A stretch of 64,000 bases of DNA, taken from Escherichia coli. Lineage in GTDB: Bacteria > Pseudomonadota > Gammaproteobacteria > Enterobacterales > Enterobacteriaceae. This document shows, in pieces, positions 9,759 to 20,783 of the stretch. Position 1 is the first letter of the stretch. Each line of letters begins with the position of its first letter. Under the pieces are notes generated by a model, which worked only from the letters and a program-made list of their open reading frames with translations, was not told the DNA's origin and did no database searches. The position numbers and the translations under genes are program-made. The stretch lies in NCBI RefSeq assembly GCF_009931435.1, contig NZ_CP043414.1; one strand, 5' to 3'.

Positions 9759-10330
9759 TGAAAATAATCGACATAAAGGCGATGAAATACCTGGAAGACG
9801 GGTCTGTTTCCTGTGAAGTGTTGTTTGGAGGGCGGGCTGATTATATTCCTTATCGTGCAGTGGAAAATGATTCTGCTGCATCAGGCCAGCGGGTATGGGG
9901 AACACTGATGAGCGGTGAGTTTGGTGAAATCATCCCCTTCACTGTAACAGCAGAGATGCTGGACAAAGAAAAAGAACTGAAAAAAGAGGAAATCAGGCGC
10001 TGGCGAACAGAACAGGAGGCGCAGCCGTTCACATTCGAATGGAACAGCAGCACATGGAATGGAGGAAAATCCTCACTGGAACGCTTATTCCCGGCAGTGA
10101 TGGCAGCAAAATCTGGTGTGGCACACAATGCCACAGTATGGAGTGATGCAAATAACCAACAAATTAAATTGTCACAACAAAAGCTGGAAGAACTACTTAC
10201 GGCAATGGTGCAGGCTCAGGCTGCACGCAACGATGAGATTTACCTGCGCCAGCGTGAGATGAAAAACACGCTGGCCACACTGAATAACATTGCTGCAATT
10301 AGGGCATTTCAGGTGGGCAAAGCAGAATGA
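9758..10330 (+). CDS. tail fibre assembly chaperone for fibre 2
   Basis: 190 aa starting MKIIDIKAMKY; ATG overlaps fibre 2 stop; coiled-coil-like C-terminus. Confidence 0.5.
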   Translation: MKIIDIKAMKYLEDGSVSCEVLFGGRADYIPYRAVENDSAASGQRVWGTLMSGEFGEIIPFTVTAEMLDKEKELKKEEIRRWRTEQEAQPFTFEWNSSTWNGGKSSLERLFPAVMAAKSGVAHNATVWSDANNQQIKLSQQKLEELLTAMVQAQAARNDEIYLRQREMKNTLATLNNIAAIRAFQVGKAE

Positions 10331-11040
10331 AATGGAAAGAGGTAATTTTACGTCCGTCTGCCATAAACATTAAATGTTCTGTGGTTTGTCTTCATCCGTG
10401 GTCAGAAAATACCGGAAACATCAAACCATCGGGGCGTTATCTCAGCCCCGAAAATGCTGTATCTGCACTTTTACCCTACCTGAAAGAAAGCACAGAAAAA
10501 GACATTGTGGCGCTGTTGTTTTGCGCTCCTTCTGCTGGCGAGTTTTTATCACTCGCCAGGCAATTTTCAGGCGCATTTCCATTGCCAGAGGTGGGGCGAA
10601 TGTCCCGCATGATTTCCAGTCAACTTTCACTGGCCATCAGCAGAATGCAAATCCCCGCCAGACCGGCAACATCACTTCCGGAACCGATAATGCTGTCGAC
10701 ACAGACCACTCGCAGCATGTCGCTGGCAGCAACCATTGCACAGGCAGCCACTCCTGCCGCCACATCACCGGAAACATTGTCATCATCGCTGCATCAGTTC
10801 ATGAATGCGAGAGATAAAGCCTTACAGGAAATCGCTGATCAGCAGGCCGCACTCCGGCAAAAAGTTTGCCCGGTGTGGCGCTTTTGCTACAAGGGAGCCC
10901 TTAGCCAGGCTGCAGTGCTGATACAAAAAAACATCCCACACCCCGAGTGGGTTTTTACAGCTGTGATGCTGTTCGTCGGCGATAATCTCTCATCACTAAG
11001 GGAAGCACTACATGACCCAGATGATTGTCCTTGCGCTTGA
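10327..11040 (+). CDS. hypothetical protein (Ser/Thr/Ala-rich)
   Basis: 237-aa ORF, ATGA-coupled to the upstream gene; no family recognised. Confidence 0.4.
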   Translation: MKWKEVILRPSAINIKCSVVCLHPWSENTGNIKPSGRYLSPENAVSALLPYLKESTEKDIVALLFCAPSAGEFLSLARQFSGAFPLPEVGRMSRMISSQLSLAISRMQIPARPATSLPEPIMLSTQTTRSMSLAATIAQAATPAATSPETLSSSLHQFMNARDKALQEIADQQAALRQKVCPVWRFCYKGALSQAAVLIQKNIPHPEWVFTAVMLFVGDNLSSLREALHDPDDCPCA

Positions 11041-11587
11041 CGGGGAAGCCATTCTGCTGCGTAACATCACCGTCAGCGCCACCATGCAACTACCGGACAA
11101 AGATATGTCCGGACAGTCAACCAGCACCACGAGCGCCCAGCAGGGAAACAAGGCTAAAGAGCTGCGCGTGTCGGGGGTTATTGATTTTAACGATGAAGCT
11201 ATTCTGACCCGTATTTTTCAGCTTGCGGAGGCAACAGAAAGCAACGGTGCTAAAAAAACATATCGCATTGCTAACGCTACCGCGAAGGCAATCAATATGC
11301 GACAGGGGGTGTTTTCTGGTGGCATTGATGCCACGGAACAACAGGGAAAAATGCACTGGCAGATCACCTTTACTCTCAGGGAAAAATTAAGCGTGCCAGA
11401 GAAAGCATCCGCACGCAGCGGTTCGCAGAAAACCATCGCCAGACAGCAGACCCAGAATGGCAGCGAACAGGTACCAGACAAAGGCATGAATACGCAAAGT
11501 TCGTTCTGGAAAAAAATCAATGATGCCGTTGGCTCTGGTCTGGATGCTGTTGGCATCGGGAGCGTGAAAGAGGAAGGGAAAACATGA
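11012..11587 (+). CDS. tail protein, possibly gpU-like
   Basis: 191 aa; segment LRVSGVIDFND...MHWQITFTLRE loosely resembles the P2 gpU family as I recall it; immediately 5' of a hub-like gene, matching P2 U-D order. Confidence 0.35.
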   Translation: MTQMIVLALDGEAILLRNITVSATMQLPDKDMSGQSTSTTSAQQGNKAKELRVSGVIDFNDEAILTRIFQLAEATESNGAKKTYRIANATAKAINMRQGVFSGGIDATEQQGKMHWQITFTLREKLSVPEKASARSGSQKTIARQQTQNGSEQVPDKGMNTQSSFWKKINDAVGSGLDAVGIGSVKEEGKT

Positions 11588-13281
11588 AATTGATACAACG
11601 CTGCATGATTAATGGCGAACGGGTGGAAATTGCCGATATAAGCCTTGTTCTTACCCTGAATGCTGCCGGTCGTGGCTTCATTTCTGTTAACAATCTGTCA
11701 CCCGAACACAGCCTTGCCGGCGCAATGGTACAAATTGATCTCGGCCGTGACGGTGAAGCATGGCGCTATTTCTCCGGCTACATTGAGCGCGATCAACCTG
11801 CTGAAAATGGCTCACGTCGCCTTTTTATTCGTGAAGCGGCTGCTGTGCTGGATTTTGATTTCCCTTGCTCCATGCAACACCCGACGTTGCGGGGGGTACT
11901 CGATAATCTGGGGCGACAAAGCGGTATCGTTTTTATCACTCCGGATGCGGATTATGCCAGTATACCAACTCCCTACATCACCCACAGCGGCAGCGGAGCA
12001 CAACTGCTCAGCCAACTGGGGCGAGCATTCAGTATCAGCGATTACGTCTGGCACCCTATGCCGGACGGTTCTGTATTTGTGGGAAGCGCAGCTGATTCAC
12101 GATTTGCCAGTATTACAATGCCGGATATTCCGCAACAGTACACACTCGGGCAAAGCGGCGGAAACAGCATCGACATCATGTTTATGGAAACTGTGCGACC
12201 GGGCGTGAACCTACCGGCCGGGCGCATTACCCGTGTAGCCCTCAACAACGAGAAAATGACCCTGACATGGGAGCGCCTTACCGCCACGGGTACCCCTGTT
12301 TCCAAATCACCATTACGCAGACAAATGGAAACACAGTTCCCAGAACTGGCCAGCGGTACGCTACATACCCGGCTGGCGCGCGTCATTGCGCCAACGGAGC
12401 CCACCACCCTGGGCGACGTGGCCGACAGTTTCCGCCCACGCTACGCCGTCGATGTGCAGTTGCTTGATGAGAACGGCAACGATAAAAGCGACACGCCCGT
12501 TTACCCGGCAGTACCGCTCCCCGTCCCCATGGCTGGCAGTGAGGCGGGATGTTTTGCCTACCCACCGGCAGGCACCATCGTGGAAATATCCAACATTGAA
12601 GGACGTCCGGACAAACCCGTTATCAGGCAAATCTTACCCGCTGGCCATAACCTGCCTGATGTAAAGCCCGGCGAACAGCTGCAGCAACAGCGCGCAGAAG
12701 TGTTTCAGCGCGTCACGACTGACGGAAGCTGGCACAGAGAAACCGATCAGCAAATCAGGGAGCATTCAGCCAGACGAACCATTAACAGCGATCAGGAAGA
12801 ACGCACAACAACAACCAGAACAACAACAGTACAGGCAAACGACATAACCAGCGTTCTGGGAACCAGCAAGCTGATGACAGGCCAGACAGAACACATTACT
12901 ACTGGTCATTATGCGATCGCAGCCGGTGAGCATATCCAGATGGTAGCGCAGGATTTGCTGACTAAACTCAAAGGGGCGACATCCACGATTGAGCGCGACC
13001 TTACTGAAAACGTGGGAGGCCGCAGAACATGCCGGGCGGACGGTGGTCTGGAGTTTACAGCCCCGACAGTATTTATTGGTCGCGGTGGCTCACGGGAAAA
13101 ATCCGGACTTAATCTGCTGACGTTGTTGATTGATATTCTGGATCTGGTTCAGTTGCTGGCCACACACACTGCAAACCACACCCACAGCAACACCGGCGCA
13201 CCAACAAACAACAGCGAACTTGCCGCAGACGCCAAACAGGCTACGAGCCTGCGCGAAAAATACGGTGACCTTATCGCCTGA
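11584..13281 (+). CDS. baseplate hub protein, gpD/gp27/VgrG-like
   Basis: 565 aa; N-terminal pattern ...ISLVLTLNAAGRGF...AMVQIDLGRDGEAWRYFSGYIER is typical of Phage_GPD/VgrG N-domains; Thr-rich stretch EERTTTTRTTTVQ; last gene of the tail operon. Confidence 0.5.
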   Translation: MKLIQRCMINGERVEIADISLVLTLNAAGRGFISVNNLSPEHSLAGAMVQIDLGRDGEAWRYFSGYIERDQPAENGSRRLFIREAAAVLDFDFPCSMQHPTLRGVLDNLGRQSGIVFITPDADYASIPTPYITHSGSGAQLLSQLGRAFSISDYVWHPMPDGSVFVGSAADSRFASITMPDIPQQYTLGQSGGNSIDIMFMETVRPGVNLPAGRITRVALNNEKMTLTWERLTATGTPVSKSPLRRQMETQFPELASGTLHTRLARVIAPTEPTTLGDVADSFRPRYAVDVQLLDENGNDKSDTPVYPAVPLPVPMAGSEAGCFAYPPAGTIVEISNIEGRPDKPVIRQILPAGHNLPDVKPGEQLQQQRAEVFQRVTTDGSWHRETDQQIREHSARRTINSDQEERTTTTRTTTVQANDITSVLGTSKLMTGQTEHITTGHYAIAAGEHIQMVAQDLLTKLKGATSTIERDLTENVGGRRTCRADGGLEFTAPTVFIGRGGSREKSGLNLLTLLIDILDLVQLLATHTANHTHSNTGAPTNNSELAADAKQATSLREKYGDLIA

Positions 13282-13880
13282 TCACCGGGCATACCCCCCC
13301 ATAAACGCCCATCACGCAACGCACGGCTCCGGTCGTGCGTTTTCATATCTGCCACCTGATTAATGCGTTCTGCGTGCCATTCTGGCGCTGTATGCGCACA
13401 CCGCGTAAACGGTGTGACGTAAAGCGTGAGGTGACGTAAACCGCGCTACCCCCTCCAACCCGCGGGTTTCGTGTCGAAACAGTTTTTCAGTTTTCTGCCG
13501 TGCAAAAATGACCGCCAGCCCGCGCAGCAACTGAGGGAAAAGCGAAGATCTGAAATTTCACGCTTTGAAATTTTTTGCAGTTTTCAAAGTGGTTTTTACG
13601 ATCGCACAAATGGCCGGAGCAATAAAACCGCATGATATTAAAAGAGTTTTCATACTTTACGCGAGACAAAAAAACGATCACGAAAGGATCGCATCAAACA
13701 GCCATCAAACAAAGAAGGCAGACACGGCGCGGCCTGCACAAAATTAAGCTCCAAAATAAAACTGAAAAAAAGGATCGCAACAAGAAGAAAAGCGCGTAAA
13801 ACGATCGCTGCTGATGTGGCGTTTCTTTATACAAGCTGCTATTTGCGATATGCTGAACACATCAACCTGTGGAGTGCATT

Positions 13881-14507
13881 ATGAAACGAAAATCAAAGTC
13901 TGCTGCCATTGCTGCTATTACTACAGCTCTGACAGCATCACTGGCTCCGGTGCCAGCTAAAAGCACGATACTACCAACAACAGTTATTGAATCCGCGACA
14001 CACGCCAGAGTGGTTTCAATGCTTACATTTGAGCATCATGATGGTCAGGTGTTTCTGCCTCTCGAAGAAGCTATTGAATATATCAACGGGCTGAATGACA
14101 ACATGCGCGCCGCGCTCAATGCAGTCATTGAAGAACGACAGAACAGAGGCAAGGGAGCACTGTTTACTGACAAAACCGCAAAAATCATAAAAATATGCGA
14201 AGAGTCAATTAAGCAGCACACCCGTGTTAAAGAGGCTGTCAAAATTGTAATGGATCCGGATAACCTGGCAAAAATGTATCCGGATAGCCTGGAGCAAAGA
14301 ATCGCCTATCGCAATAAACTGGTTCGTTTTGGTCGGGCAATTGCGCAGGGAGAGTTTATCGCTCGTGATGCCATCAACACCATCAAACGAAGCACCGCAC
14401 CAGACAAAACAACCAGCCTGGGCAATACGCTGTCTGACGGAAATGTGAAAGCAATGATTATTGCCGAGCATAAAAACATGGGACTCCCGGCACCGGAGTT
14501 TTCCTGA
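13881..14507 (+). CDS. hypothetical secreted protein (signal peptide)
   Basis: MKRKSKSAAIAAITTALTASLA-PVP has an n-region, h-region and A-x-A site; about 208 aa; stop overlaps the next ATG (TGATG). Confidence 0.5.
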   Translation: MKRKSKSAAIAAITTALTASLAPVPAKSTILPTTVIESATHARVVSMLTFEHHDGQVFLPLEEAIEYINGLNDNMRAALNAVIEERQNRGKGALFTDKTAKIIKICEESIKQHTRVKEAVKIVMDPDNLAKMYPDSLEQRIAYRNKLVRFGRAIAQGEFIARDAINTIKRSTAPDKTTSLGNTLSDGNVKAMIIAEHKNMGLPAPEFS

Positions 14508-14887
14508 TGGCAAGCAAAGTAAGCATTCATAAAGATGTTGAATACCAGGACATTGCAAAAGTTTACGGAAAGGCTCTGGAAAACTGGTTAAATACCGGTG
14601 TTCTCCCTGACAGATTCGGCAATGAAGGGCAGTGGGAAGATAACGCAAGATTATGTGGTTCGTTTGTATATAAATTACACATAAGACTACCGTCAGAACC
14701 ACCATGGAAGAAAAGCAAAGCCCAAATAGACAGAACTTCAAATATCTATCTGGTTTATACAAGGCACTGGATGGATTATGACAATATACAAATCATCAGC
14801 ATCATGGCCCCAGATGCTCACGAAAAAGCCAAAACTTCTTTCATGGCTGAACTGGAAAGACGGGCTGAAGAATTCCAGAACTCATAA
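14507..14887 (+). CDS. YafO-like toxin family protein
   Basis: 126 aa; GVLPDRFG, KLHIRL, IYLVYTRHW and a C-terminal AE..RRAEEF line up with E. coli YafO as recalled from memory (GVLPDTFG, HIHL, HLVY...). Confidence 0.5.
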   Translation: MASKVSIHKDVEYQDIAKVYGKALENWLNTGVLPDRFGNEGQWEDNARLCGSFVYKLHIRLPSEPPWKKSKAQIDRTSNIYLVYTRHWMDYDNIQIISIMAPDAHEKAKTSFMAELERRAEEFQNS

Positions 14888-14906
14888 ATTGCCTGATTTT
14901 CTCTCA

Positions 14907-14940
14907 GAAACCCGCAGCGTAAAAACTGTGGGTTTTCTTT
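14907..14940 (+). terminator. rho-independent terminator after the YafO-like gene
   Basis: gaaacccgcag...ctgtgggttt hairpin followed by TTTTTC. Confidence 0.5.
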
Positions 14941-15178
14941 TTGCTACCCTGATACGTGAGGGTAGCACTCAAAGTGAGGCAATATGTAGGCAACCTATTT
15001 AATACGTAAAAATTAATGCATTAAATGGATATTTACTAGCATGGGTACTGGCTTAAAATATCACAACCCTGTTTTATAACGTACTGAATTTATTAGGTGT
15101 GACGGTTTTCCAATGGGGCTTCCGACATTACGTTCAGCTGATGCTTTTCTTATGTAACGAGAAGACATATATTGGTAA

Positions 15179-15234
15179 GCGATGAAGCGATGAAGCGATG
15201 AAGCGATGAAGCGATGAAGCGATGAAGCGATGTA
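15179..15234. repeat. 8-bp tandem repeat (GCGATGAA) x6 plus one variant copy (GCGATGTA)
   Basis: Read directly: six perfect head-to-tail units then one variant, about 95 bp upstream of the ATPase gene start. Confidence 0.95.
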
Positions 15235-15251
15235 ACGTCTGTTTGGTTATA

Positions 15252-15296
15252 AACTTCACACTAATAATTTCTAAATGAAATTATTAGTGTGAAGTT
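15252..15296. promoter_or_regulatory. perfect 20-bp-arm inverted repeat (candidate operator or RNA hairpin) upstream of the ATPase gene
   Basis: aacttcacactaataatttc (15252-15271) / gaaattattagtgtgaagtt (15277-15296), 5-nt loop; 33 bp before the ATG at 15330. Confidence 0.6.
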
Positions 15297-15329
15297 GATG
15301 TTTATTGTGATTATAACTAAGGAATTAAA

Positions 15330-16799
15330 ATGAAATTATCTCCAGCAGAATTGAAGTTAGAAAGGGGTAAGGTTCAAGATAATAAATTCAATCAATATGT
15401 TAAACGTATCACATTAAAAAATGTCAGAGGGTTTGATGAGGAAATTGTGGAGTTTAAAACACCAGTTACAGCTCTTATCGGGACTAATGGTGGAGGGAAG
15501 TCGACTATATTAGGTGCTGTAGCTCTCGCTTATAAAAATGTTAAGCCAAGCAAGTTTTTCCCTAAATCATTTTATGGGGATGATTCAATGAGTGATTGGG
15601 AAATTGGATTCGAATTGATTGACAAGCCTATTTCAAAAGATAAAAATATTAACAGGACTGCAAAATTTAAACAGATGAAATGGCGCAGAGATAATTTCCC
15701 AGAGCGAAATGTTGTATATGTAGAAATACAAAGAACTGTTCCTGCAGGCGAACTAACTAAGTTTAATAAATTTTTATCTGGCGATGCTAAACAATTTGAA
15801 GAAAAAAATCTCAACCCTGAGACAATAAAATATTGCTCTGCCGTTTTAGATAAAAAGATAGAAGATTACAGATGTATAATAAATAAGCACGATCCATCTT
15901 CAAGAATGTTTGTAGGTAAGGCAATTAATGGTTCTGGTTATTCTCAGTTCCATTTTGGTGCAGGTGAAGCATCAATAATAGATACTATTGATAGAATAGA
16001 GACTGCTGCTGATAATTCTCTTGTTTTAATTGAAGAAATTGAAAATGGACTGCATCCTGTTGCAGTGCGGTTGTTTGTTAACTATTTGACAAATGTAGCA
16101 AAGAGGAAAAAGCTGCAAATAATATTTACAACACATTCGCAGGATGCAGTAAACGAGCTAGAGCCAGAAGCTGTTTGGGCTTCTATTAACAAAAAAGTAT
16201 GGAATGGTAAACTAAGTATTGAAAGTTTACGCGCTATAACGGGACAGAAGATAAATTCGAAAGTTATATATGTTGAAGATTCTTTTGCAAAAGAGTGGGT
16301 TGAAAATGCGATGGATCGATATATTCCAGAACTAGCCTCAACAATAAAAGTCTACACGGCAGGTGGTTACCCCAGCGTGGTTAAAGTAAGTCAATATCAT
16401 AATGAGAACCCTACTATAAATTATCCATCAATCGCATTAGTTGATGGGGATATTAAAGGTAGACCCGGAACTAAAGATCTGCCTGATAATGCAATGTTCA
16501 TCGGGGATGATTATCCTGACGCTACGGTTTTTCATTATATTGCAAATAACATAGAAGAAAATGCCTCAGTTTTGAGGCAAAGATGTTTGTTAACAAGATT
16601 TGACGCTGAAAAGATTAAATCGGAAGTTGAGAGTGTGATGCATTCTGCATGTGATCACCATGTTTATTTTACTAGATTAAGTGATAAATTAGATTTTGCC
16701 TCAGAACTATTCATTCGAGCTGGTATGATAGATTTATTTAATGAGAAAAATCCAGAATTTTGGTCCCCAATTATGGACTTCATTAAAAAAGGTCTATAG
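15330..16799 (+). CDS. ABC-type ATPase fused to a Toprim/DUF4435-like domain (OLD-family or fused-PARIS-like candidate defence nuclease)
   Basis: 489 aa; Walker A GTNGGGKST (K57), signature-like SGYSQFHFGAGEAS, Walker B LVLIEE (E235/E236), H-loop FTTHS; C-terminal VIYVED (E316) and ALVDGD (D372/D374) fit Toprim Glu and DxD; strongly AT-rich; own RBS and terminator. Confidence 0.6.
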   Translation: MKLSPAELKLERGKVQDNKFNQYVKRITLKNVRGFDEEIVEFKTPVTALIGTNGGGKSTILGAVALAYKNVKPSKFFPKSFYGDDSMSDWEIGFELIDKPISKDKNINRTAKFKQMKWRRDNFPERNVVYVEIQRTVPAGELTKFNKFLSGDAKQFEEKNLNPETIKYCSAVLDKKIEDYRCIINKHDPSSRMFVGKAINGSGYSQFHFGAGEASIIDTIDRIETAADNSLVLIEEIENGLHPVAVRLFVNYLTNVAKRKKLQIIFTTHSQDAVNELEPEAVWASINKKVWNGKLSIESLRAITGQKINSKVIYVEDSFAKEWVENAMDRYIPELASTIKVYTAGGYPSVVKVSQYHNENPTINYPSIALVDGDIKGRPGTKDLPDNAMFIGDDYPDATVFHYIANNIEENASVLRQRCLLTRFDAEKIKSEVESVMHSACDHHVYFTRLSDKLDFASELFIRAGMIDLFNEKNPEFWSPIMDFIKKGL

Positions 16800-16865
16800 T
16801 AATAATGCAAAAATATAATATTTAGTTTGCGATTTATATTTTTCATAATGAATTGTTGAGAAAAT

Positions 16866-16900
16866 AAGAGAGCATCGAAAATTGAGGCTCTCTTATTTTT
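16866..16900 (+). terminator. rho-independent terminator of the ATPase gene
   Basis: aagagagc (16866-16873) / gctctctt (16887-16894) stem followed by ATTTTT. Confidence 0.6.
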
Positions 16901-17082
16901 ATGAGATATCTCTAATGTATTAATCGTTTTATTTTGGTGCTACCACCACTGATGCTAACTTGTCGATCAGACATTCGCACTATTCAATATCTTTTAGGCT
17001 CCGCAATGAAAACGCCCCCGAAGGAACAATCCCCCGTCAATCGGTTGCCAAAGGCCATTTAGGTAAATCGCCTTCGAGGTCG

Positions 17083-17346
17083 TTCGATGGCTGCATGACG
17101 TTCCCGGTTATCCCGTCAAAGAAAATGCACTCGACCGGAAAACCAGAAGAACTAATGGCGGAGTTGGTCAGGACTGCGAATAGTGGCGGAACAGTCCTTG
17201 ATCCTTTTATGGGGCCAGGGACAACGGGTGTGGCTGCACTGAAAGCAGGGCGAAAATTTATTGGTATAGAGACCAGTGATCATTATTTTGAAGTAGCAGC
17301 ACAGCGACTTCGGGGGACTATTACCACAACCATTTCGACTACATAA
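17083..17346 (+). pseudogene. C-terminal fragment of a beta-class N6A/N4C DNA methyltransferase
   Basis: ...HSTGKPEELMAELVRTANSGGTVLDPFMGPGTTGVAALKAGRKFIGIETSDHYFEVAAQRL matches the AdoMet-binding FxGxG end of N6_N4 MTases; no DPPY-containing N-terminal part upstream. Confidence 0.6.
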
Positions 17347-17446
17347 GACAAAGCCCGCATTTTTGCGGGCTTGTATATCATTAGTGATGTGGACAGTTTG
17401 TGGATGTTTACAAGAAATAAGCTAATAGAAACAATTTGTTATCTTT

Positions 17447-17474
17447 ACAAAAAACGCGCCCGAAGGCGCGTTGG
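17447..17474 (-). terminator. raiA terminator
   Basis: aaaaaacgcgcc-cgaa-ggcgcgtt hairpin 3' of raiA (minus strand), T-run on the transcribed strand. Confidence 0.6.
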
Positions 17475-17495
17475 CGATACACTCAATATAAAGGA

Positions 17496-17891
<396 letters not shown>

Positions 17892-18028
17892 TCAAAATGT
17901 GTGATGGAAATCTCATAATTTTGTCACTTTTTGTCAACGAATCTTTTTTGTGAGAAATCGCAGGAAGAGGTGTTTTTTTACTTGAGGAATATCTCAAAGC
18001 GAGCCATATTTGATGAGATCGATAGTGA

Positions 18029-18808
18029 CTAAATCGCTTCAGTTTCACAACTAACAGAATAAAAAAACGGCAGCTCAAGGCTGTAATGCCAGTCAGTTAA
18101 GCAACTGACTGGCTCTTTTTCGGGGCTGTGGGGTATTTCCAGGGCCTCTCCTTTACCACTCTCGGGAAGGCCCTTTCCCTTCTTGTCGGTAATTTCACTG
18201 GCTGTCCCATACTTGCAAGATCGCGCATCAGCTCCGGTATACGTCCCGGTGAAGCGCATGGCGTCCGTCATCGACGTCAGCAGATGGCTGGTCAGTTCCA
18301 TCTGGCAGACCATTTTGACCTGCGGGTAGAGCGCCGGGTTCCCGGCATGTGTCTGGCGGGGGAAGGCTGCATCGTTCTCTGGTGTATCCGGTGTGCGCCA
18401 GAACACACCATCGATGGCCAGCAGGGTCAGGCTGCACCAGTGCGGATGCAGCGTGGCGTTATGCCAGAGCTGCGCTGTTTTCGTGAACACGCGGCGGACA
18501 GCCTCACTTCCCAGGCGCTGGCGGGCCTGAATAACGGCACTGGGGGCAACGAAGGGGCGATTGCCCGGCAGCATGATGTCCAGGCGATTCACAATCTGGT
18601 GAAGAGGTTCTTTACGCTCAAGCGCCATGCCAACAATACACCAGACCATCATTTCGAGGGGAAGACGGCGCTTGCGTAGCGTTACAGTACCTGATTCGGC
18701 AAGGCAACGAGAGATGAGTTCGGGGTCGAGGTAATCCCCCAGAAAAGTCAGTGGGTTACGCAGAGAATCGTAACGGGATACCAAATCAAGGGCCTGTCCA
18801 ATGAGCAT
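18029..18808 (-). pseudogene. IS4 transposase (InsG-like), internal deletion with frameshifted C-terminus
   Basis: First about 178 aa (MLIGQALDLVSRYDSLRNPLTFLGDYLDPELISRCLAESG...QVKMVCQMELTSHLLT) match IS4 transposase as I recall it; then the frame jumps to out-of-frame 3'-end sequence. Confidence 0.65.
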
Positions 18809-18892
18809 AAAAAAATCCGGAAACGAGTGAGCGTTTCCGGATTCTTACACAGCCACTGAATCGGTCAACTGATCCTTAACTGATCGGCATTA
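18084..18892 (-). mobile_element. IS4, internally deleted copy with terminal inverted repeats and target-site duplication
   Basis: Ends TAATGCCAGTCAGTTAAG (18084-) and CTTAACTGATCGGCATTA (-18892); flanking direct repeat cagctcaagg(g)ctg at 18071-18083 and 18893-18906; about 0.8 kb versus about 1.4 kb for intact IS4 (from memory). Confidence 0.7.
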
Positions 18893-18930
18893 CAGCTCAA
18901 GGGCTGCCGTTTTTTTATTTCAATCTTCTG

Positions 18931-19668
18931 TTATGTATTGCTGCTGTTAGCAGCGATAATCTTCGCTACCTTTTCAGCTTGCGCATTCATCTGCATCTGA
19001 CGGTATGCATTTTCCATCAGCGGCAGCGCATCACGCGTAGCCTGGGTATCCGGATAGTCGCGCAACATGCCTTCTACGCGGTTAACGACAGCAACCCATG
19101 CACCACGTTCTGTATAATACTCGGCAACGGAGTATTCATATTTCGCCAGACGATCTTTCAGGAATACCAGACGTTTGGTGGCATCGGTGGTGTACTGACT
19201 GTTCGGATAGCCGCGCACCAGTTTGGAAAAGTCACTAAACGCAGCTCGTGCATGTTGAGGATCGCGATCGCTACGGTCAACGCCAAAGAACCCTTGCAGC
19301 GCACTGTCATCCAGCGCCATATTGGTCAGGCCACGCATGTACATGACATAATCGATATTCGGATGGGTCGGGTTAAGGCGAATAAAACGATCGATGGCAG
19401 CCTGTGCTAACGGCAAATCGGCGTTTTTATAGTAGGCGTAGATGAGATCCAGCTGCACCTGCTGCGAATACGGACCAAACGGATAGCGATTATCTAACGC
19501 TTCCAGTTGCGTTATTGCCTGTCTCCAGTTACCGTCCTGCAGCTTTTGTTGTGCAGTCGCGTAAATTTCATTTGGCGGATTATCAGGTACTTCTTCCTTT
19601 GACCCCGAGCAACCCGCCAAAAACAGGCTTAGTGTGGCGGCTGCCACCAGATATTTCATGCGCGTCAT
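18931..19668 (-). CDS. bamD: outer membrane protein assembly factor BamD
   Basis: 245 aa lipoprotein, signal + lipobox LAGCSG, TPR-like; recognised as E. coli BamD/YfiO. Confidence 0.95.
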
Positions 19669-19802
19669 GACGTTTTGACTTTCCTCAAAATGTAATACGG
19701 GAGATTCTCTGTTCCTGCTCCCGGTTAAGACCAGCTACAATAGCACACTATATTAAACGGCAAAGCCGTAAAACCCCAACGATAAACGAAGAAGCAGTAT
19801 AT

Positions 19803-20783
19803 ATGGCACAACGAGTACAGCTCACTGCAACGGTGTCCGAAAACCAACTCGGTCAACGCTTAGATCAGGCTTTGGCCGAAATGTTCCCGGATTATTCACG
19901 TTCGCGAATAAAAGAATGGATCCTCGACCAGCGCGTGCTGGTTAACGGCAAAGTTTGTGATAAGCCGAAAGAAAAAGTATTGGGTGGCGAGCAGGTGGCC
20001 ATCAACGCTGAGATTGAAGAAGAAGCGCGTTTTGAACCGCAGGATATCCCGCTGGATATCGTCTATGAAGATGAAGATATCATCGTCATTAATAAACCAC
20101 GCGACCTGGTGGTACATCCTGGCGCGGGTAACCCGGATGGCACGGTACTGAATGCGTTGCTTCATTATTATCCGCCCATTGCCGATGTACCGCGTGCGGG
20201 CATCGTCCATCGTCTGGATAAAGACACCACCGGCCTGATGGTTGTGGCAAAAACCGTTCCGGCTCAGACGCGTTTAGTCGAATCTTTGCAACGGCGTGAA
20301 ATTACTCGTGAGTATGAAGCGGTGGCAATTGGTCATATGACCGCTGGCGGTACAGTAGATGAACCAATCAGCCGCCACCCGACCAAACGTACTCACATGG
20401 CGGTGCATCCGATGGGTAAACCGGCGGTCACTCACTATCGCATCATGGAACACTTCCGTGTGCACACGCGTCTGCGGTTGCGTCTGGAAACCGGACGTAC
20501 GCACCAGATCCGCGTGCATATGGCCCATATCACTCATCCGCTGGTGGGCGATCCGGTTTATGGCGGCCGTCCGCGTCCGCCAAAAGGTGCTTCGGAAGCG
20601 TTTATCTCCACGCTGCGTAAGTTTGACCGCCAGGCGCTTCATGCAACCATGCTGCGTCTTTATCACCCGATCTCCGGCATCGAAATGGAATGGCATGCGC
20701 CTATTCCACAAGATATGGTGGAGCTGATTGAGGTGATGCGCGCCGATTTCGAAGAGCATAAGGATGAAGTGGACTGGTTATGA
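19803..20783 (+). CDS. rluD: 23S rRNA pseudouridine synthase D
   Basis: 326 aa, MAQRVQLTATVSENQLGQRLDQALAEMF..., HRLDKDTTG motif. Confidence 0.95.
   Translation: MAQRVQLTATVSENQLGQRLDQALAEMFPDYSRSRIKEWILDQRVLVNGKVCDKPKEKVLGGEQVAINAEIEEEARFEPQDIPLDIVYEDEDIIVINKPRDLVVHPGAGNPDGTVLNALLHYYPPIADVPRAGIVHRLDKDTTGLMVVAKTVPAQTRLVESLQRREITREYEAVAIGHMTAGGTVDEPISRHPTKRTHMAVHPMGKPAVTHYRIMEHFRVHTRLRLRLETGRTHQIRVHMAHITHPLVGDPVYGGRPRPPKGASEAFISTLRKFDRQALHATMLRLYHPISGIEMEWHAPIPQDMVELIEVMRADFEEHKDEVDWL

What the first reader, a model, noticed from the sequence alone, without database searches (positions are those of the whole stretch)
18061..18919. Internally deleted IS4 inserted in the loop of the bamD-raiA terminator hairpin
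Joining the flanks reconstructs a perfect hairpin, aaaaaaacggcagc-tcaagg-gctgccgttttttt. The element carries IS4-like terminal inverted repeats and a 13/14-bp target-site duplication (cagctcaagg(g)ctg). The transposase frame matches IS4 InsG (as I recall it) for about 178 aa, then jumps to out-of-frame 3'-end sequence, so roughly 0.6 kb is missing and the copy is immobile on its own. The insertion separates the bamD terminator halves and lies about 250 bp upstream of the raiA start, so it may alter raiA expression or bamD 3' end formation.
Basis: partly seen in the sequence, partly recalled or inferred. Interest (0 to 1): 0.45.

Follow-up and report, generated by a model that had tools for sequence, protein, structure and literature searches.

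The report
Decayed IS4 relic in bamD terminator
This is a dead, twice-deleted copy of the well-known E. coli insertion sequence IS4, sitting in the terminator hairpin after bamD. That hairpin is a site IS4 hits repeatedly in other strains, so the feature is real but ordinary.

Summary
Window 18084-18892 is an 809-bp remnant of the 1426-bp IS4. It is 98.6% identical to the K-12-type element over what is left. Its 18-bp terminal inverted repeats are intact, and it is flanked by a 13/14-bp target duplication (18071-18083 and 18893-18906).

Strains without the element, K-12 MG1655 and O104:H4, carry that 14-mer once, inside a perfect A-run/GC-stem/T-run hairpin 12 nt after the bamD stop codon.

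The missing 617 bp are two deletions, not one:
- 336 bp, in frame, between 14-bp direct repeats.
- 281 bp, out of frame, between imperfect 12-bp repeats.

They remove two of the three catalytic residues, D209 and E314.

In 5426 complete E. coli genomes:
- The same hairpin holds IS4 in this orientation in 335 genomes and in the opposite orientation in 70.
- The double-deletion form is in 18 genomes. Eight of the ones listed also have a nested IS200.
- EPEC E2348/69 keeps a one-deletion intermediate at this site.

IS4 targets such hairpins generally: six of the eight loci I reconstructed are of this type.

RefSeq already annotates the identical sequence as a frameshifted IS4 transposase pseudogene. 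Effects on bamD and raiA transcription are inferred only. IS4 carries its own hairpin plus U7, which probably takes over bamD termination.

The parts
18084..18892 (-). IS4 relic, 809 bp (the reference IS4 is 1426 bp). The transposase sense is on the minus strand, co-directional with bamD and raiA.
   Evidence: It aligns to K-12-type IS4 in three collinear blocks with 11 mismatches in 809 positions, 98.64%. RefSeq annotates the identical sequence in strain 2020CK-00188 as 'IS4 family transposase, frameshifted'.
18084..18101 (.). Left terminal inverted repeat, TAATGCCAGTCAGTTAAG.
   Evidence: (I1). It is identical to the left end of intact IS4 copies.
18875..18892 (.). Right terminal inverted repeat, CTTAACTGATCGGCATTA.
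   Evidence: (I1). It matches the left repeat at 16 of 18 positions, as in intact IS4.
18071..18083 (.). Left copy of the target-site duplication, CAGCTCAAGGCTG (13 nt).
   Evidence: (D6). Other genomes with the double-deletion form have this exact 13-mer on both sides.
18893..18906 (.). Right copy of the target-site duplication, CAGCTCAAGGGCTG (14 nt, one extra G).
   Evidence: The extra G travels with a diverged bamD-side flank that is found in only 10 of 5426 genomes.
18061..18070 (-). Outer half of the bamD terminator on the raiA side: an A7 run (the U7 tract of the bamD transcript) plus CGG.
   Evidence: 17-nt perfect inverted repeat with 18903-18919 (I2); empty-site alignment.
18907..18916 (-). 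Outer half of the bamD terminator on the bamD side: CCG plus a T7 run.
   Evidence: (I2).
18275..18288 (.). Junction of the 336-bp in-frame deletion (IS4 positions 487-822, or the equivalent in register). It sits at a 14-bp direct repeat, CGTCAGCAGATGGC, which encodes the two SHLLT/CHLLT motifs of InsG.
18251..18257 (.). Junction of the 281-bp frameshifting deletion (IS4 positions 175-455). It sits at the microhomology GAAGCGC inside the imperfect 12-bp repeat CCGGTGAAGCGC / CCGGGGAAGCGC.
18029..18808 (-). 259-aa pseudo-ORF. It is InsG 1-178, then InsG 291-298, then a frameshifted tail that runs 55 nt beyond the IS end into the flank.
   Evidence: Pfam finds Nterm_IS4 only and no DDE domain.
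18097..18250 (-). Out-of-frame remnant of the InsG C-terminus (residues about 392-442, SPGRIPELMRDLASMGQ...KKSQSVA).
   Evidence: Frame 1 of the translation; ORF 18097-18228.
18804..18846 (-). IS4-borne hairpin (AAUCCGGAAACG / CGUUUCCGGAUU) followed by U7, ending immediately before the transposase ATG (18808). It is a candidate substitute terminator for bamD transcripts.
   Evidence: Folds at -21.8 kcal/mol with z = -6.2. The same structure is present in consensus IS4 at -22.3 kcal/mol. Function is inferred, not shown.
18841..18868 (-). Promoter-like match TTGACC-16-AAGAAT with an upstream TG, overlapping the 5' arm of the hairpin.
   Evidence: This is a consensus match only; 2 sites were found in the region against 1.9 expected by chance.
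18088..18113 (.). 11-bp hairpin at the left end of IS4, overlapping the inverted repeat and the end of the transposase gene.
   Evidence: (I4). It reads as terminator-like only on the plus strand.
18931..19668 (-). bamD, the upstream gene whose terminator was split.
   Evidence: ORF; RefSeq annotation of identical loci.
17496..17837 (-). raiA, the downstream gene. Its 246-nt upstream region (17838-18083) matches K-12 at all but 3 positions.

Best explanation
The feature is a non-autonomous, decaying relic of insertion sequence IS4. An IS4 copy transposed into the intrinsic terminator hairpin just downstream of bamD. The cuts were symmetric inside the stem, so the loop and inner stem (13 bp) were duplicated. 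This is IS4's normal target choice, which favours an A-run, a GC hairpin and a T-run.

The copy then lost 336 bp by slippage or illegitimate recombination between 14-bp direct repeats. That state still exists at this locus in EPEC E2348/69. It later lost a further 281 bp between imperfect 12-bp repeats. Together the deletions removed D209 and the E314/K321 motif and shifted the frame. What remains encodes no transposase, and in the closest genomes it is the only IS4 sequence present, so it is frozen in place and evolving neutrally.

Inferred, not shown:
- bamD transcripts now terminate at IS4's own hairpin plus U7 (18846-18804) rather than at the split native terminator.
- raiA keeps its own 246-nt upstream region. 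At most it receives weak read-through from the IS4 end, because only a 4-bp mini-hairpin plus U7 remains between the relic and raiA.
For: Identity with IS4:
- Three collinear blocks at 98.6% identity to the 1426-bp reference.
- Intact inverted repeats.
- Nterm_IS4 domain, E = 2.5e-33.

It is an insertion:
- K-12 and O104:H4 have an uninterrupted hairpin that contains the duplicated sequence once.
- Intact IS4 occupies the same site in the same orientation with a 14-bp duplication (L001).

Target preference:
- Six of eight reconstructed IS4 loci are A-run/GC-hairpin/T-run sites with the duplication centred on the dyad: bamD-raiA (both orientations), tdk-adhE, rraA-zapB, galP-metK, pdxK-crr and gspK-glcA.
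- De Palmenaer et al. [quoted passage not shown]

Hot spot:
- 335 of 5426 genomes carry IS4 here in this orientation.
- 70 carry it in the opposite orientation.

Deletions:
- Both junctions lie on direct repeats of the parent element.
- An intermediate with only the 336-bp deletion, the same 13-bp duplication and the same marker SNPs is present in E2348/69.
- The double-deletion junction is in 18 genomes.

Loss of function:
- D133 is kept; D209 and Y307-K321 are deleted.
- No DDE_Tnp_1 match, whereas intact InsG matches at 3e-31.
- The relic is the only matching place in the listed double-deletion genomes checked: H31 and H111.

Neutral decay:
- 4 nonsynonymous against 2 synonymous changes in the retained 178 codons.
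- Copies of the relic differ by about 0.9%, and one has a shifted tail.
- IS200 is inserted between the hairpin and the ATG in 8 genomes.

Substitute terminator:
- Hairpin plus U7 at -21.8 kcal/mol, z = -6.2, conserved in consensus IS4.
- The residual half-terminator next to raiA folds no better than shuffled sequence (-4.8 kcal/mol, z = +0.4).
Against: - Nothing contradicts the identity or the history.
- The order of the two deletions rests on one intermediate genome type.
- The same 281-bp deletion exists in 1042 genomes; the five examined are all at tdk-adhE. These copies share marker SNPs with the window copy, so gene conversion or trans-mobilisation cannot be fully excluded. However, the crossover differs at IS4 position 167 (T here, G there), which favours independent deletion.
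- All transcriptional statements are predictions from folding and consensus scans. The scanning tool itself did not flag the IS4 hairpin.
- I could not find a mapped raiA transcription start site.
Confidence: 0.9

Rival explanations
1. The relic is a still-mobilisable, MITE-like non-autonomous IS4 derivative. It reached, or can leave, this site by using transposase supplied in trans by an intact IS4.
For: - Both 18-bp inverted repeats are intact.
- Deletion derivatives of the same old IS4 lineage sit at more than one locus. The form with the 336-bp deletion is at bamD-raiA (L024) and inside a prophage tail region (L025). The form with the 281-bp deletion is at tdk-adhE. All share marker SNPs 1318A, 1338A and 1359G.
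Against: - Every double-deletion copy I could place is at bamD-raiA: 15 of the 18 appear among the bamD-raiA rows. The five sequenced here (L005, L015-L018) carry the same left 13-mer, and three of them (L016-L018) have it on both sides.
- The closest genomes contain no other IS4 sequence, so no helper transposase is available.
- The 281-bp deletions at the two loci have different crossover points, which suggests recurrent deletion rather than movement.
- L025 lacks a clean duplication.
Confidence: 0.07
2. The relic has been co-opted. Either the truncated InsG N-terminal DNA-binding protein (259-aa ORF) acts as a regulator or transposition inhibitor, or the IS end provides a new promoter or terminator that beneficially changes raiA or bamD expression.
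For: - The 259-aa ORF is open in 5 of 6 copies examined, and the Nterm_IS4 domain is complete.
- A promoter-like match and a strong hairpin plus U7 lie between bamD and the ORF.
- The allele has persisted long enough to accumulate about 0.9% divergence between copies.
Against: - It is rare: 18 of 5426 genomes.
- Substitutions are mostly nonsynonymous: 4 against 2 in the window copy and 3 against 3 in L016.
- The ORF tail is frameshifted sequence that runs into flanking DNA and differs in L017.
- IS200 separates the ORF from its upstream region in 8 genomes.
- Intact IS4 in either orientation, and empty sites, are all common, so no particular configuration appears to be required.
Confidence: 0.04
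3. The double-deletion copy arose by gene conversion or recombination between a bamD-raiA copy carrying the 336-bp deletion and the tdk-adhE copy carrying the 281-bp deletion, rather than by a second independent deletion in place.
For: - E2348/69-type genomes have two IS4-related places.
- The window copy shares positions 116T and 117G, besides the deletion, with the tdk-adhE copies.
Against: - The junction differs at IS4 position 167 (T against G).
- The bamD-raiA copy of E2348/69, which has only the 336-bp deletion, also carries 116T and 117G, so these are lineage markers rather than evidence of transfer.
- Only about 24 bp of homology lies between the two deletions, which is too little to resolve a conversion tract.
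Confidence: 0.08

Closest known systems
IS4 of Escherichia coli (the insG element of K-12; the founding member of the IS4 family and IS4 subgroup)
   Same: - Same terminal inverted repeats.
- 98.6% nucleotide identity over all retained sequence.
- Same N-terminal transposase domain.
- Same internal hairpin plus U7 upstream of the start codon.
- Same class of target site and same duplication length.
   Different: - 617 bp shorter, through two internal deletions.
- Lacks D209 and the Y-R-E-K block that includes catalytic E314, and is frameshifted.
- Belongs to an older sequence variant marked by 1318A, 1338A and 1359G.
IS4 pseudogenes at bamD-raiA in other E. coli: RefSeq 'IS4 family transposase, frameshifted' in 2020CK-00188, 2013C-4282 and others, and the one-deletion form in EPEC E2348/69
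   Same: - 2020CK-00188 is 100% identical over window 17840-19000.
- 18 genomes share both deletion junctions.
- E2348/69 shares the site, the orientation, the 13-bp duplication and the 336-bp deletion.
   Different: - The window and 9-10 genomes have one extra G in the right duplicate and a diverged bamD-side flank.
- Only the window combines the relic with a prophage inserted next to raiA.
The 1145-bp IS4 pseudogene with the 281-bp deletion at tdk-adhE, found in UTI89, ATCC 25922, EC958 and other strains
   Same: - Same pair of repeats used for the 281-bp deletion.
- Same old IS4 variant lineage.
- Also inserted in an A-run/hairpin/T-run terminator.
   Different: - Different locus.
- Retains the 336 bp that the window copy has lost.
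- The crossover lies on the other side of the repeat mismatch (G, not T, at position 167).
Rho-independent (intrinsic) terminator of bamD
   Same: The joined flanks restore a GC-rich 8-bp stem, a 6-nt loop and a U7 tract on the bamD sense strand, 12 nt after the stop codon.
   Different: In this window the two halves are 822 bp apart, so the native structure cannot form. Only 4-bp mini-hairpins remain in each duplicate.

Membership tests
IS4 (the element itself; IS4 family, IS4 subgroup) | Imperfect terminal inverted repeats of about 18 bp, beginning TAATGCC | tested here: met
   18084-18101 and 18875-18892 match at 16 of 18 positions and are identical to the ends of intact copies.
IS4 (the element itself; IS4 family, IS4 subgroup) | High nucleotide identity to the 1426-bp reference element | tested here: met
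   98.64% over the 809 retained bases, in three collinear blocks.
IS4 (the element itself; IS4 family, IS4 subgroup) | Target-site duplication of about one helical turn. For IS4 I recall 11-13 bp; the family figure of 'about 10 bp' is given in PMC2266710. | tested here: met
   13 nt on the left and 14 nt on the right. There is a perfect 13-bp duplication in sister genomes and a 14-bp one around an intact copy at this site. Across eight loci the range is 11-14 bp.
IS4 (the element itself; IS4 family, IS4 subgroup) | Single-ORF transposase with an Nterm_IS4 domain | tested here: met
   PF13006 matched with E = 2.5e-33 over residues 18-109.
IS4 (the element itself; IS4 family, IS4 subgroup) | DDE catalytic triad and Y(2)R(3)E(6)K motif, required for an autonomous member | tested here: not met
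   D133 is retained. D209 (MDKGYY) and Y307-K321 (YSHRWEIELGYREIK) are deleted. There is no PF01609 match, whereas intact InsG matches at 3e-31. The element is therefore an IS4 derivative or pseudogene, not a functional IS.
IS4 (the element itself; IS4 family, IS4 subgroup) | Target specificity for symmetric A...T arms. I recall the consensus as AAA-N20-TTT and could not find it in the held literature. | tested here: met
   The site reads AAA-CGGCAGCTCAAGGGCTGCCG-TTT, with exactly 20 nt between the arms. Six of eight reconstructed loci are A-run/hairpin/T-run sites and two more have AAA...TTT arms. Qualitative support comes from PMC2266710.
Intrinsic (Rho-independent) terminator, applied to the interrupted target | GC-rich hairpin immediately followed by a U-tract, downstream of a gene | tested here: met
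   The empty-site hairpin folds at -18 kcal/mol with z = -5.05, has U7 on the bamD sense strand, and lies 12 nt after the stop codon.
Intrinsic (Rho-independent) terminator, applied to the interrupted target | Demonstrated termination of transcription | not testable with these tools
   This needs 3'-end mapping.
MITE-like or non-autonomous mobilisable IS derivative | The same deleted element present at several independent loci, each with its own duplication | tested here: not met
   The double-deletion form was seen only at bamD-raiA. One-deletion forms occur at two loci each, but with different crossover points or without a clean duplication.

The most novel reading that the evidence does not exclude
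The relic rewires local transcription in this lineage. bamD mRNA would acquire an IS4-derived 3' UTR of about 100 nt ending at the IS4 hairpin plus U7. raiA, which encodes a ribosome hibernation factor, would gain constitutive read-through from the IS4 end, because the native insulator between bamD and raiA is destroyed.

More generally, the natural allelic series at this one hairpin would make a ready-made system for studying how IS4 recognises terminator hairpins and how the duplication length (13 against 14 bp) follows loop length. The series comprises the empty site, intact IS4 in both orientations, the one-deletion form, the double-deletion form and the form with nested IS200.
Probability: 0.15. 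Interest if true: 0.3.

Novelty: already known. Interest (0 to 1): 0.12.

Why it matters
It matters little beyond annotation. The relic marks a small E. coli lineage: 18 of 5426 complete genomes, and only 10 with this exact flank.

It illustrates three textbook points in one locus:
- IS4 is drawn to symmetric terminator hairpins. The bamD terminator is occupied in about 7.5% of complete genomes, in both orientations.
- Dead IS copies shrink by slippage between short internal repeats.
- An IS that carries its own terminator can replace the one it destroys.

If the transcriptional prediction held, raiA or bamD expression could differ slightly in carriers. Nothing here suggests selection for that.

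Tried and rejected
- A left-junction query (window 18040-18130) was meant to count occupied sites. It failed because other IS4 target terminators, such as tdk-adhE, resemble the bamD flank closely enough to reach 80% coverage. The 966 genomes it returned are not a count for this locus, so I used the 1161-bp and 1926-bp queries instead.
- A synthetic 'empty site with the window-type flank' query cannot see empty sites, because BLAST's low-complexity filter masks the A and T runs. It shows only that the window-type bamD flank occurs in 10 genomes, all with the relic.
- A literature search for the recalled IS4 consensus 'AAAN20TTT' found nothing, and the Mahillon and Chandler review (PMC98933) is not held. 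I reconstructed target sites from genomes instead.
- Searches for a mapped raiA promoter or transcription start site gave only regulation by cAMP-CRP, ppGpp, FNR and CsrA, with no coordinates.
- An Rfam scan of 17300-19800 found no credible RNA family. The only hit was MicC-like at 31.8 bits against a gathering score of 90.
- I first favoured the idea that the window copy is a transposed version of the tdk-adhE element with the 281-bp deletion, on the basis of the shared SNPs. I then downgraded it, because E2348/69 has the same SNPs at bamD-raiA without that deletion and the crossover points differ.
- The synonymous/nonsynonymous counts for L017 and L018 are artefacts of an indel offset and were ignored.
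Full report
**1. What is in the window**

On the plus strand the region reads as follows:
- raiA, 17496-17837, minus strand.
- A 246-nt spacer.
- The element.
- bamD, 18931-19668, minus strand.
- rluD, 19803-20783, plus strand.

The element runs from 18084 to 18892 (809 bp). It begins TAATGCCAGTCAGTTAAG and ends CTTAACTGATCGGCATTA, an imperfect inverted repeat matching at 16 of 18 positions.

It is flanked by CAGCTCAAGGCTG (18071-18083) and CAGCTCAAGGGCTG (18893-18906). Outside these lie AATAAAAAAACGG and CCGTTTTTTTATT, which are perfectly complementary (17 nt counting the first stem bases, I2).

**2. Is it an insertion, and into what**

K-12 MG1655 and O104:H4 have an uninterrupted AATAAAAAAACGGCAGCTCAAGGGCTGCCGTTTTGT at this position, 12 nt after the bamD stop. 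The 14-mer occurs once there, so the flanking repeat is a genuine target-site duplication.

The empty-site sequence folds into an 8-bp GC stem with a 6-nt loop. On the bamD sense strand it is followed by U7. The fold is -18 kcal/mol, z = -5.05, and 0 of 200 shuffles do as well. This is a canonical intrinsic terminator, flanked symmetrically by an A-run.

The duplicated segment is the loop plus four stem base pairs on each side. IS4 therefore cut inside the stem, and each flank keeps a 4-bp mini-hairpin plus one outer half-stem.

**3. Identity**

Against a K-12-type IS4 (1426 bp; L003 304-1729) the element aligns in three collinear blocks. In the coordinates of the reference locus L003, where IS4 starts at 304:
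- Window 18081-18257 matches L003 301-477.
- Window 18246-18288 matches L003 747-789.
- Window 18275-18892 matches L003 1112-1729.

There are 11 mismatches in 809 compared positions, which is 98.64% identity.

Pfam finds the Nterm_IS4 domain (E = 2.5e-33) but no DDE_Tnp_1 domain. Intact InsG has both.

RefSeq annotates the identical sequence in strain 2020CK-00188 as 'IS4 family transposase, frameshifted'.

**4. The deletions**

Both junctions sit on direct repeats of the parent element.

*The 336-bp deletion.* It joins two copies of CGTCAGCAGATGGC, 14 of 14 identical. On the coding strand these encode the SHLLT (residue 174) and CHLLT (residue 286) motifs. The deletion is in frame and removes InsG residues 179-290, including D209 in MDKGYY.

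*The 281-bp deletion.* It joins CCGGTGAAGCGC and CCGGGGAAGCGC, with the crossover in GAAGCGC. It removes residues from 299 onward, including YSHRWEIELGYREIK (Y307, R310, E314, K321). It also shifts the frame, so the InsG C-terminus (about residues 392-442) is present but out of frame.

The 259-aa ORF (18029-18808, minus strand) is therefore InsG 1-178, then 291-298, then nonsense that runs 55 nt past the IS end. Of the catalytic triad only D133 remains.

**5. Population context (5426 complete E. coli genomes)**

| Feature | Genomes |
|---|---|
| IS4 in any form at bamD-raiA, window orientation | 335 |
| Intact IS4 at bamD-raiA, opposite orientation | 70 |
| Double-deletion junction | 18 |
| 336-bp deletion junction | 33 |
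| 281-bp deletion junction | 1042 |

- All double-deletion copies listed are at bamD-raiA, and 8 of them carry a nested IS200/IS605 element.
- The five copies with the 281-bp deletion that I examined are all in the tdk-adhE terminator of strains such as UTI89, ATCC 25922 and EC958.
- EPEC E2348/69 carries, at bamD-raiA and in the same orientation, a 1089-bp copy with only the 336-bp deletion. It has the same perfect 13-bp duplication and the same marker SNPs as the window copy: 116T, 117G, 1318A, 1338A and 1359G.
- Intact copies at this site (L001, L013) have the K-12 consensus sequence, and one has a 14-bp duplication. They are most simply separate, more recent insertions.
- The 281-bp deletions at tdk-adhE and bamD-raiA use the same repeat pair but differ at the repeat mismatch: G against T at IS4 position 167. 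This favours independent, recurrent slippage over movement or conversion, though a later point change cannot be excluded.

The best-supported history is: an old IS4 variant inserts (13-bp duplication), loses 336 bp, loses 281 bp to give the window state, and in some genomes acquires IS200.

**6. Why this hairpin**

I reconstructed empty sites for IS4 copies at eight loci.
- Six are an A-run, a GC hairpin and a T-run, with the 11-14-bp duplication centred on the dyad. These are bamD-raiA (both orientations), tdk-adhE, rraA-zapB, galP-metK, pdxK-crr and gspK-glcA.
- The K-12 insG site and yicI have AAA...TTT arms without a hairpin.
- nfsA has neither.

The bamD site reads AAA-N20-TTT exactly. 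This agrees with my recollection of the published IS4 target consensus, which I could not retrieve here. [quoted passage not shown]

The duplication is 13 bp where the loop variant is TCAAG and 14 bp where it is TCAAGG. The cut positions therefore track the arms.

**7. The imperfect duplication in the window**

Sister double-deletion genomes (L016-L018) have CAGCTCAAGGCTG on both sides. The window, 2020CK-00188 and the IS200-bearing genomes have an extra G on the bamD side. They also have a diverged flank, TTTTTTTATTTCAATCTTCTG in place of TTTTGTGTTTCAGGTTTCTG. That flank occurs in only 10 of 5426 genomes, always with the relic. The mismatch is therefore a later change or import on the bamD side, not a property of the insertion.

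**8. Is it doing anything**

*Decay.*
- Against consensus, the retained 178 codons carry 4 nonsynonymous and 2 synonymous changes.
- Relic copies differ from one another by about 0.9%.
- One copy has a different ORF tail.
- IS200 sits between the upstream hairpin and the ATG in 8 genomes.
- In the listed double-deletion genomes checked (H31, H111) the relic is the only IS4-related place, so no helper transposase is present.

This is the pattern of a neutral relic. The numbers are too small for a formal test.

*Transcription (inference only).*
- On the bamD sense strand, the first strong structure after the split terminator is IS4's own hairpin AAUCCGGAAACG/CGUUUCCGGAUU followed by U7 (18846-18804). 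It folds at -21.8 kcal/mol, z = -6.2, and is conserved in consensus IS4 at -22.3 kcal/mol.
- It lies about 85-125 nt after the bamD stop and is a plausible replacement terminator.
- A promoter-like match (TTGACC-16-AAGAAT) overlaps its 5' arm, but it is no more than chance would give.
- Between the relic and raiA only a 4-bp mini-hairpin plus U7 remains. It folds at -4.8 kcal/mol, z = +0.4. Any transcription leaving the IS end could therefore reach raiA.
- The 246 nt upstream of raiA differ from K-12 at only 3 positions. They include a TTGACA hexamer (17896-17891) and a CRP-like TGTGA-N6-TCTCA (17899-17914), both read directly from the sequence. raiA is reported to be under cAMP-CRP, ppGpp and FNR control (PMC8778775). 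I found no mapped start site.

**9. Verdict**

The feature is a known kind of object at a known kind of site and is already annotated as such in RefSeq.

The modest additions here are:
- The bamD terminator is a recurrent IS4 hot spot, hit in both orientations.
- A natural decay series exists at this locus.
- The same repeat-mediated deletions recur in different copies.

Interest is low.

Noticed in passing
window 1-17446, boundary at 17446/17447: The DNA on the other side of raiA is not pheL-pheA, as it is in most E. coli. It is the end of a prophage or island that abuts the A-run of the raiA/RaiZ terminator. It carries tail genes, a YafO-family toxin, a 489-aa OLD-like ATPase at 15330-16799 (PADLOC candidate defence gene HEC-04, E = 6e-204; Pfam AAA_15 and AAA_21) and a truncated N6/N4 DNA methyltransferase at 16960-17346. 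Only 6 of 5426 genomes share at least 80% of window 13000-17500. The best match (7_33_46A) has an empty bamD-raiA site.
   Followed up: partly
L002 1501-2667 and L022 (tdk-adhE copies carrying the 281-bp deletion), compared with L019: In some strains with the 281-bp-deleted copy at tdk-adhE, such as ATCC 25922, the right inverted repeat plus flank (CTTAACTGACTGGCATTA-CCCCTTCTGGGGCCGTTT) is the exact reverse complement of the left flank plus repeat. The 'duplication' is therefore inverted (loop AGAA against TTCT). L019 has the normal direct 12-bp duplication. This looks like palindromisation by template switching or conversion between the two ends.
   Followed up: partly
L015 about 1570-2290, equivalent to window about 18802-18818: In 8 genomes an IS200/IS605-family element is nested in the relic. 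It sits in the A-run between the IS4 hairpin and the transposase ATG.
   Followed up: partly
NZ_CM128605.1 (strain E200086), hits H221 and H248: The relic's deletion junction (record position 1145954) and the window-type bamD flank (1283052) lie about 137 kb apart and on opposite strands. This suggests a rearrangement with a breakpoint in or next to the relic or its nested IS200.
   Followed up: no
L025 (NZ_CP069677.1 855108-859566): A second copy of the form with only the 336-bp deletion (1091 bp, same old variant lineage) lies in a degraded prophage tail-fibre region next to an IS66 element. It has no clean target duplication and is annotated only as 'transposase domain-containing protein'.
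   Followed up: partly
window 18893-19000: The bamD-side flank, including the 3' end of bamD, is only 90.7% identical to O104:H4 over 108 bp (9 mismatches and 1 gap), while the raiA side is 98.8% identical. The BamD protein accession in the identical strain 2020CK-00188 is the same as in other strains. This allele is found in 10 of 5426 genomes, so a small recombinational import or a local mutation cluster is likely.
   Followed up: partly
window 17335-17458, minus strand: There is a weak full-length Rfam hit to MicC (31.8 bits against a gathering score of 90, E = 0.036). It spans the prophage end and the raiA/RaiZ terminator and is most likely chance. K-12 annotates the sRNA RaiZ over the raiA 3' end, which corresponds to about window 17450-17611.
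   Followed up: no
bamD terminator loop, window 18079-18080 compared with 18901-18903, and L013, L016, L001: The terminator loop is polymorphic among E. coli (TCAAG against TCAAGG). The IS4 duplication length follows it, at 13 against 14 bp. The 14-bp case is one more than the 11-13 bp I recall being quoted for IS4.
   Followed up: partly
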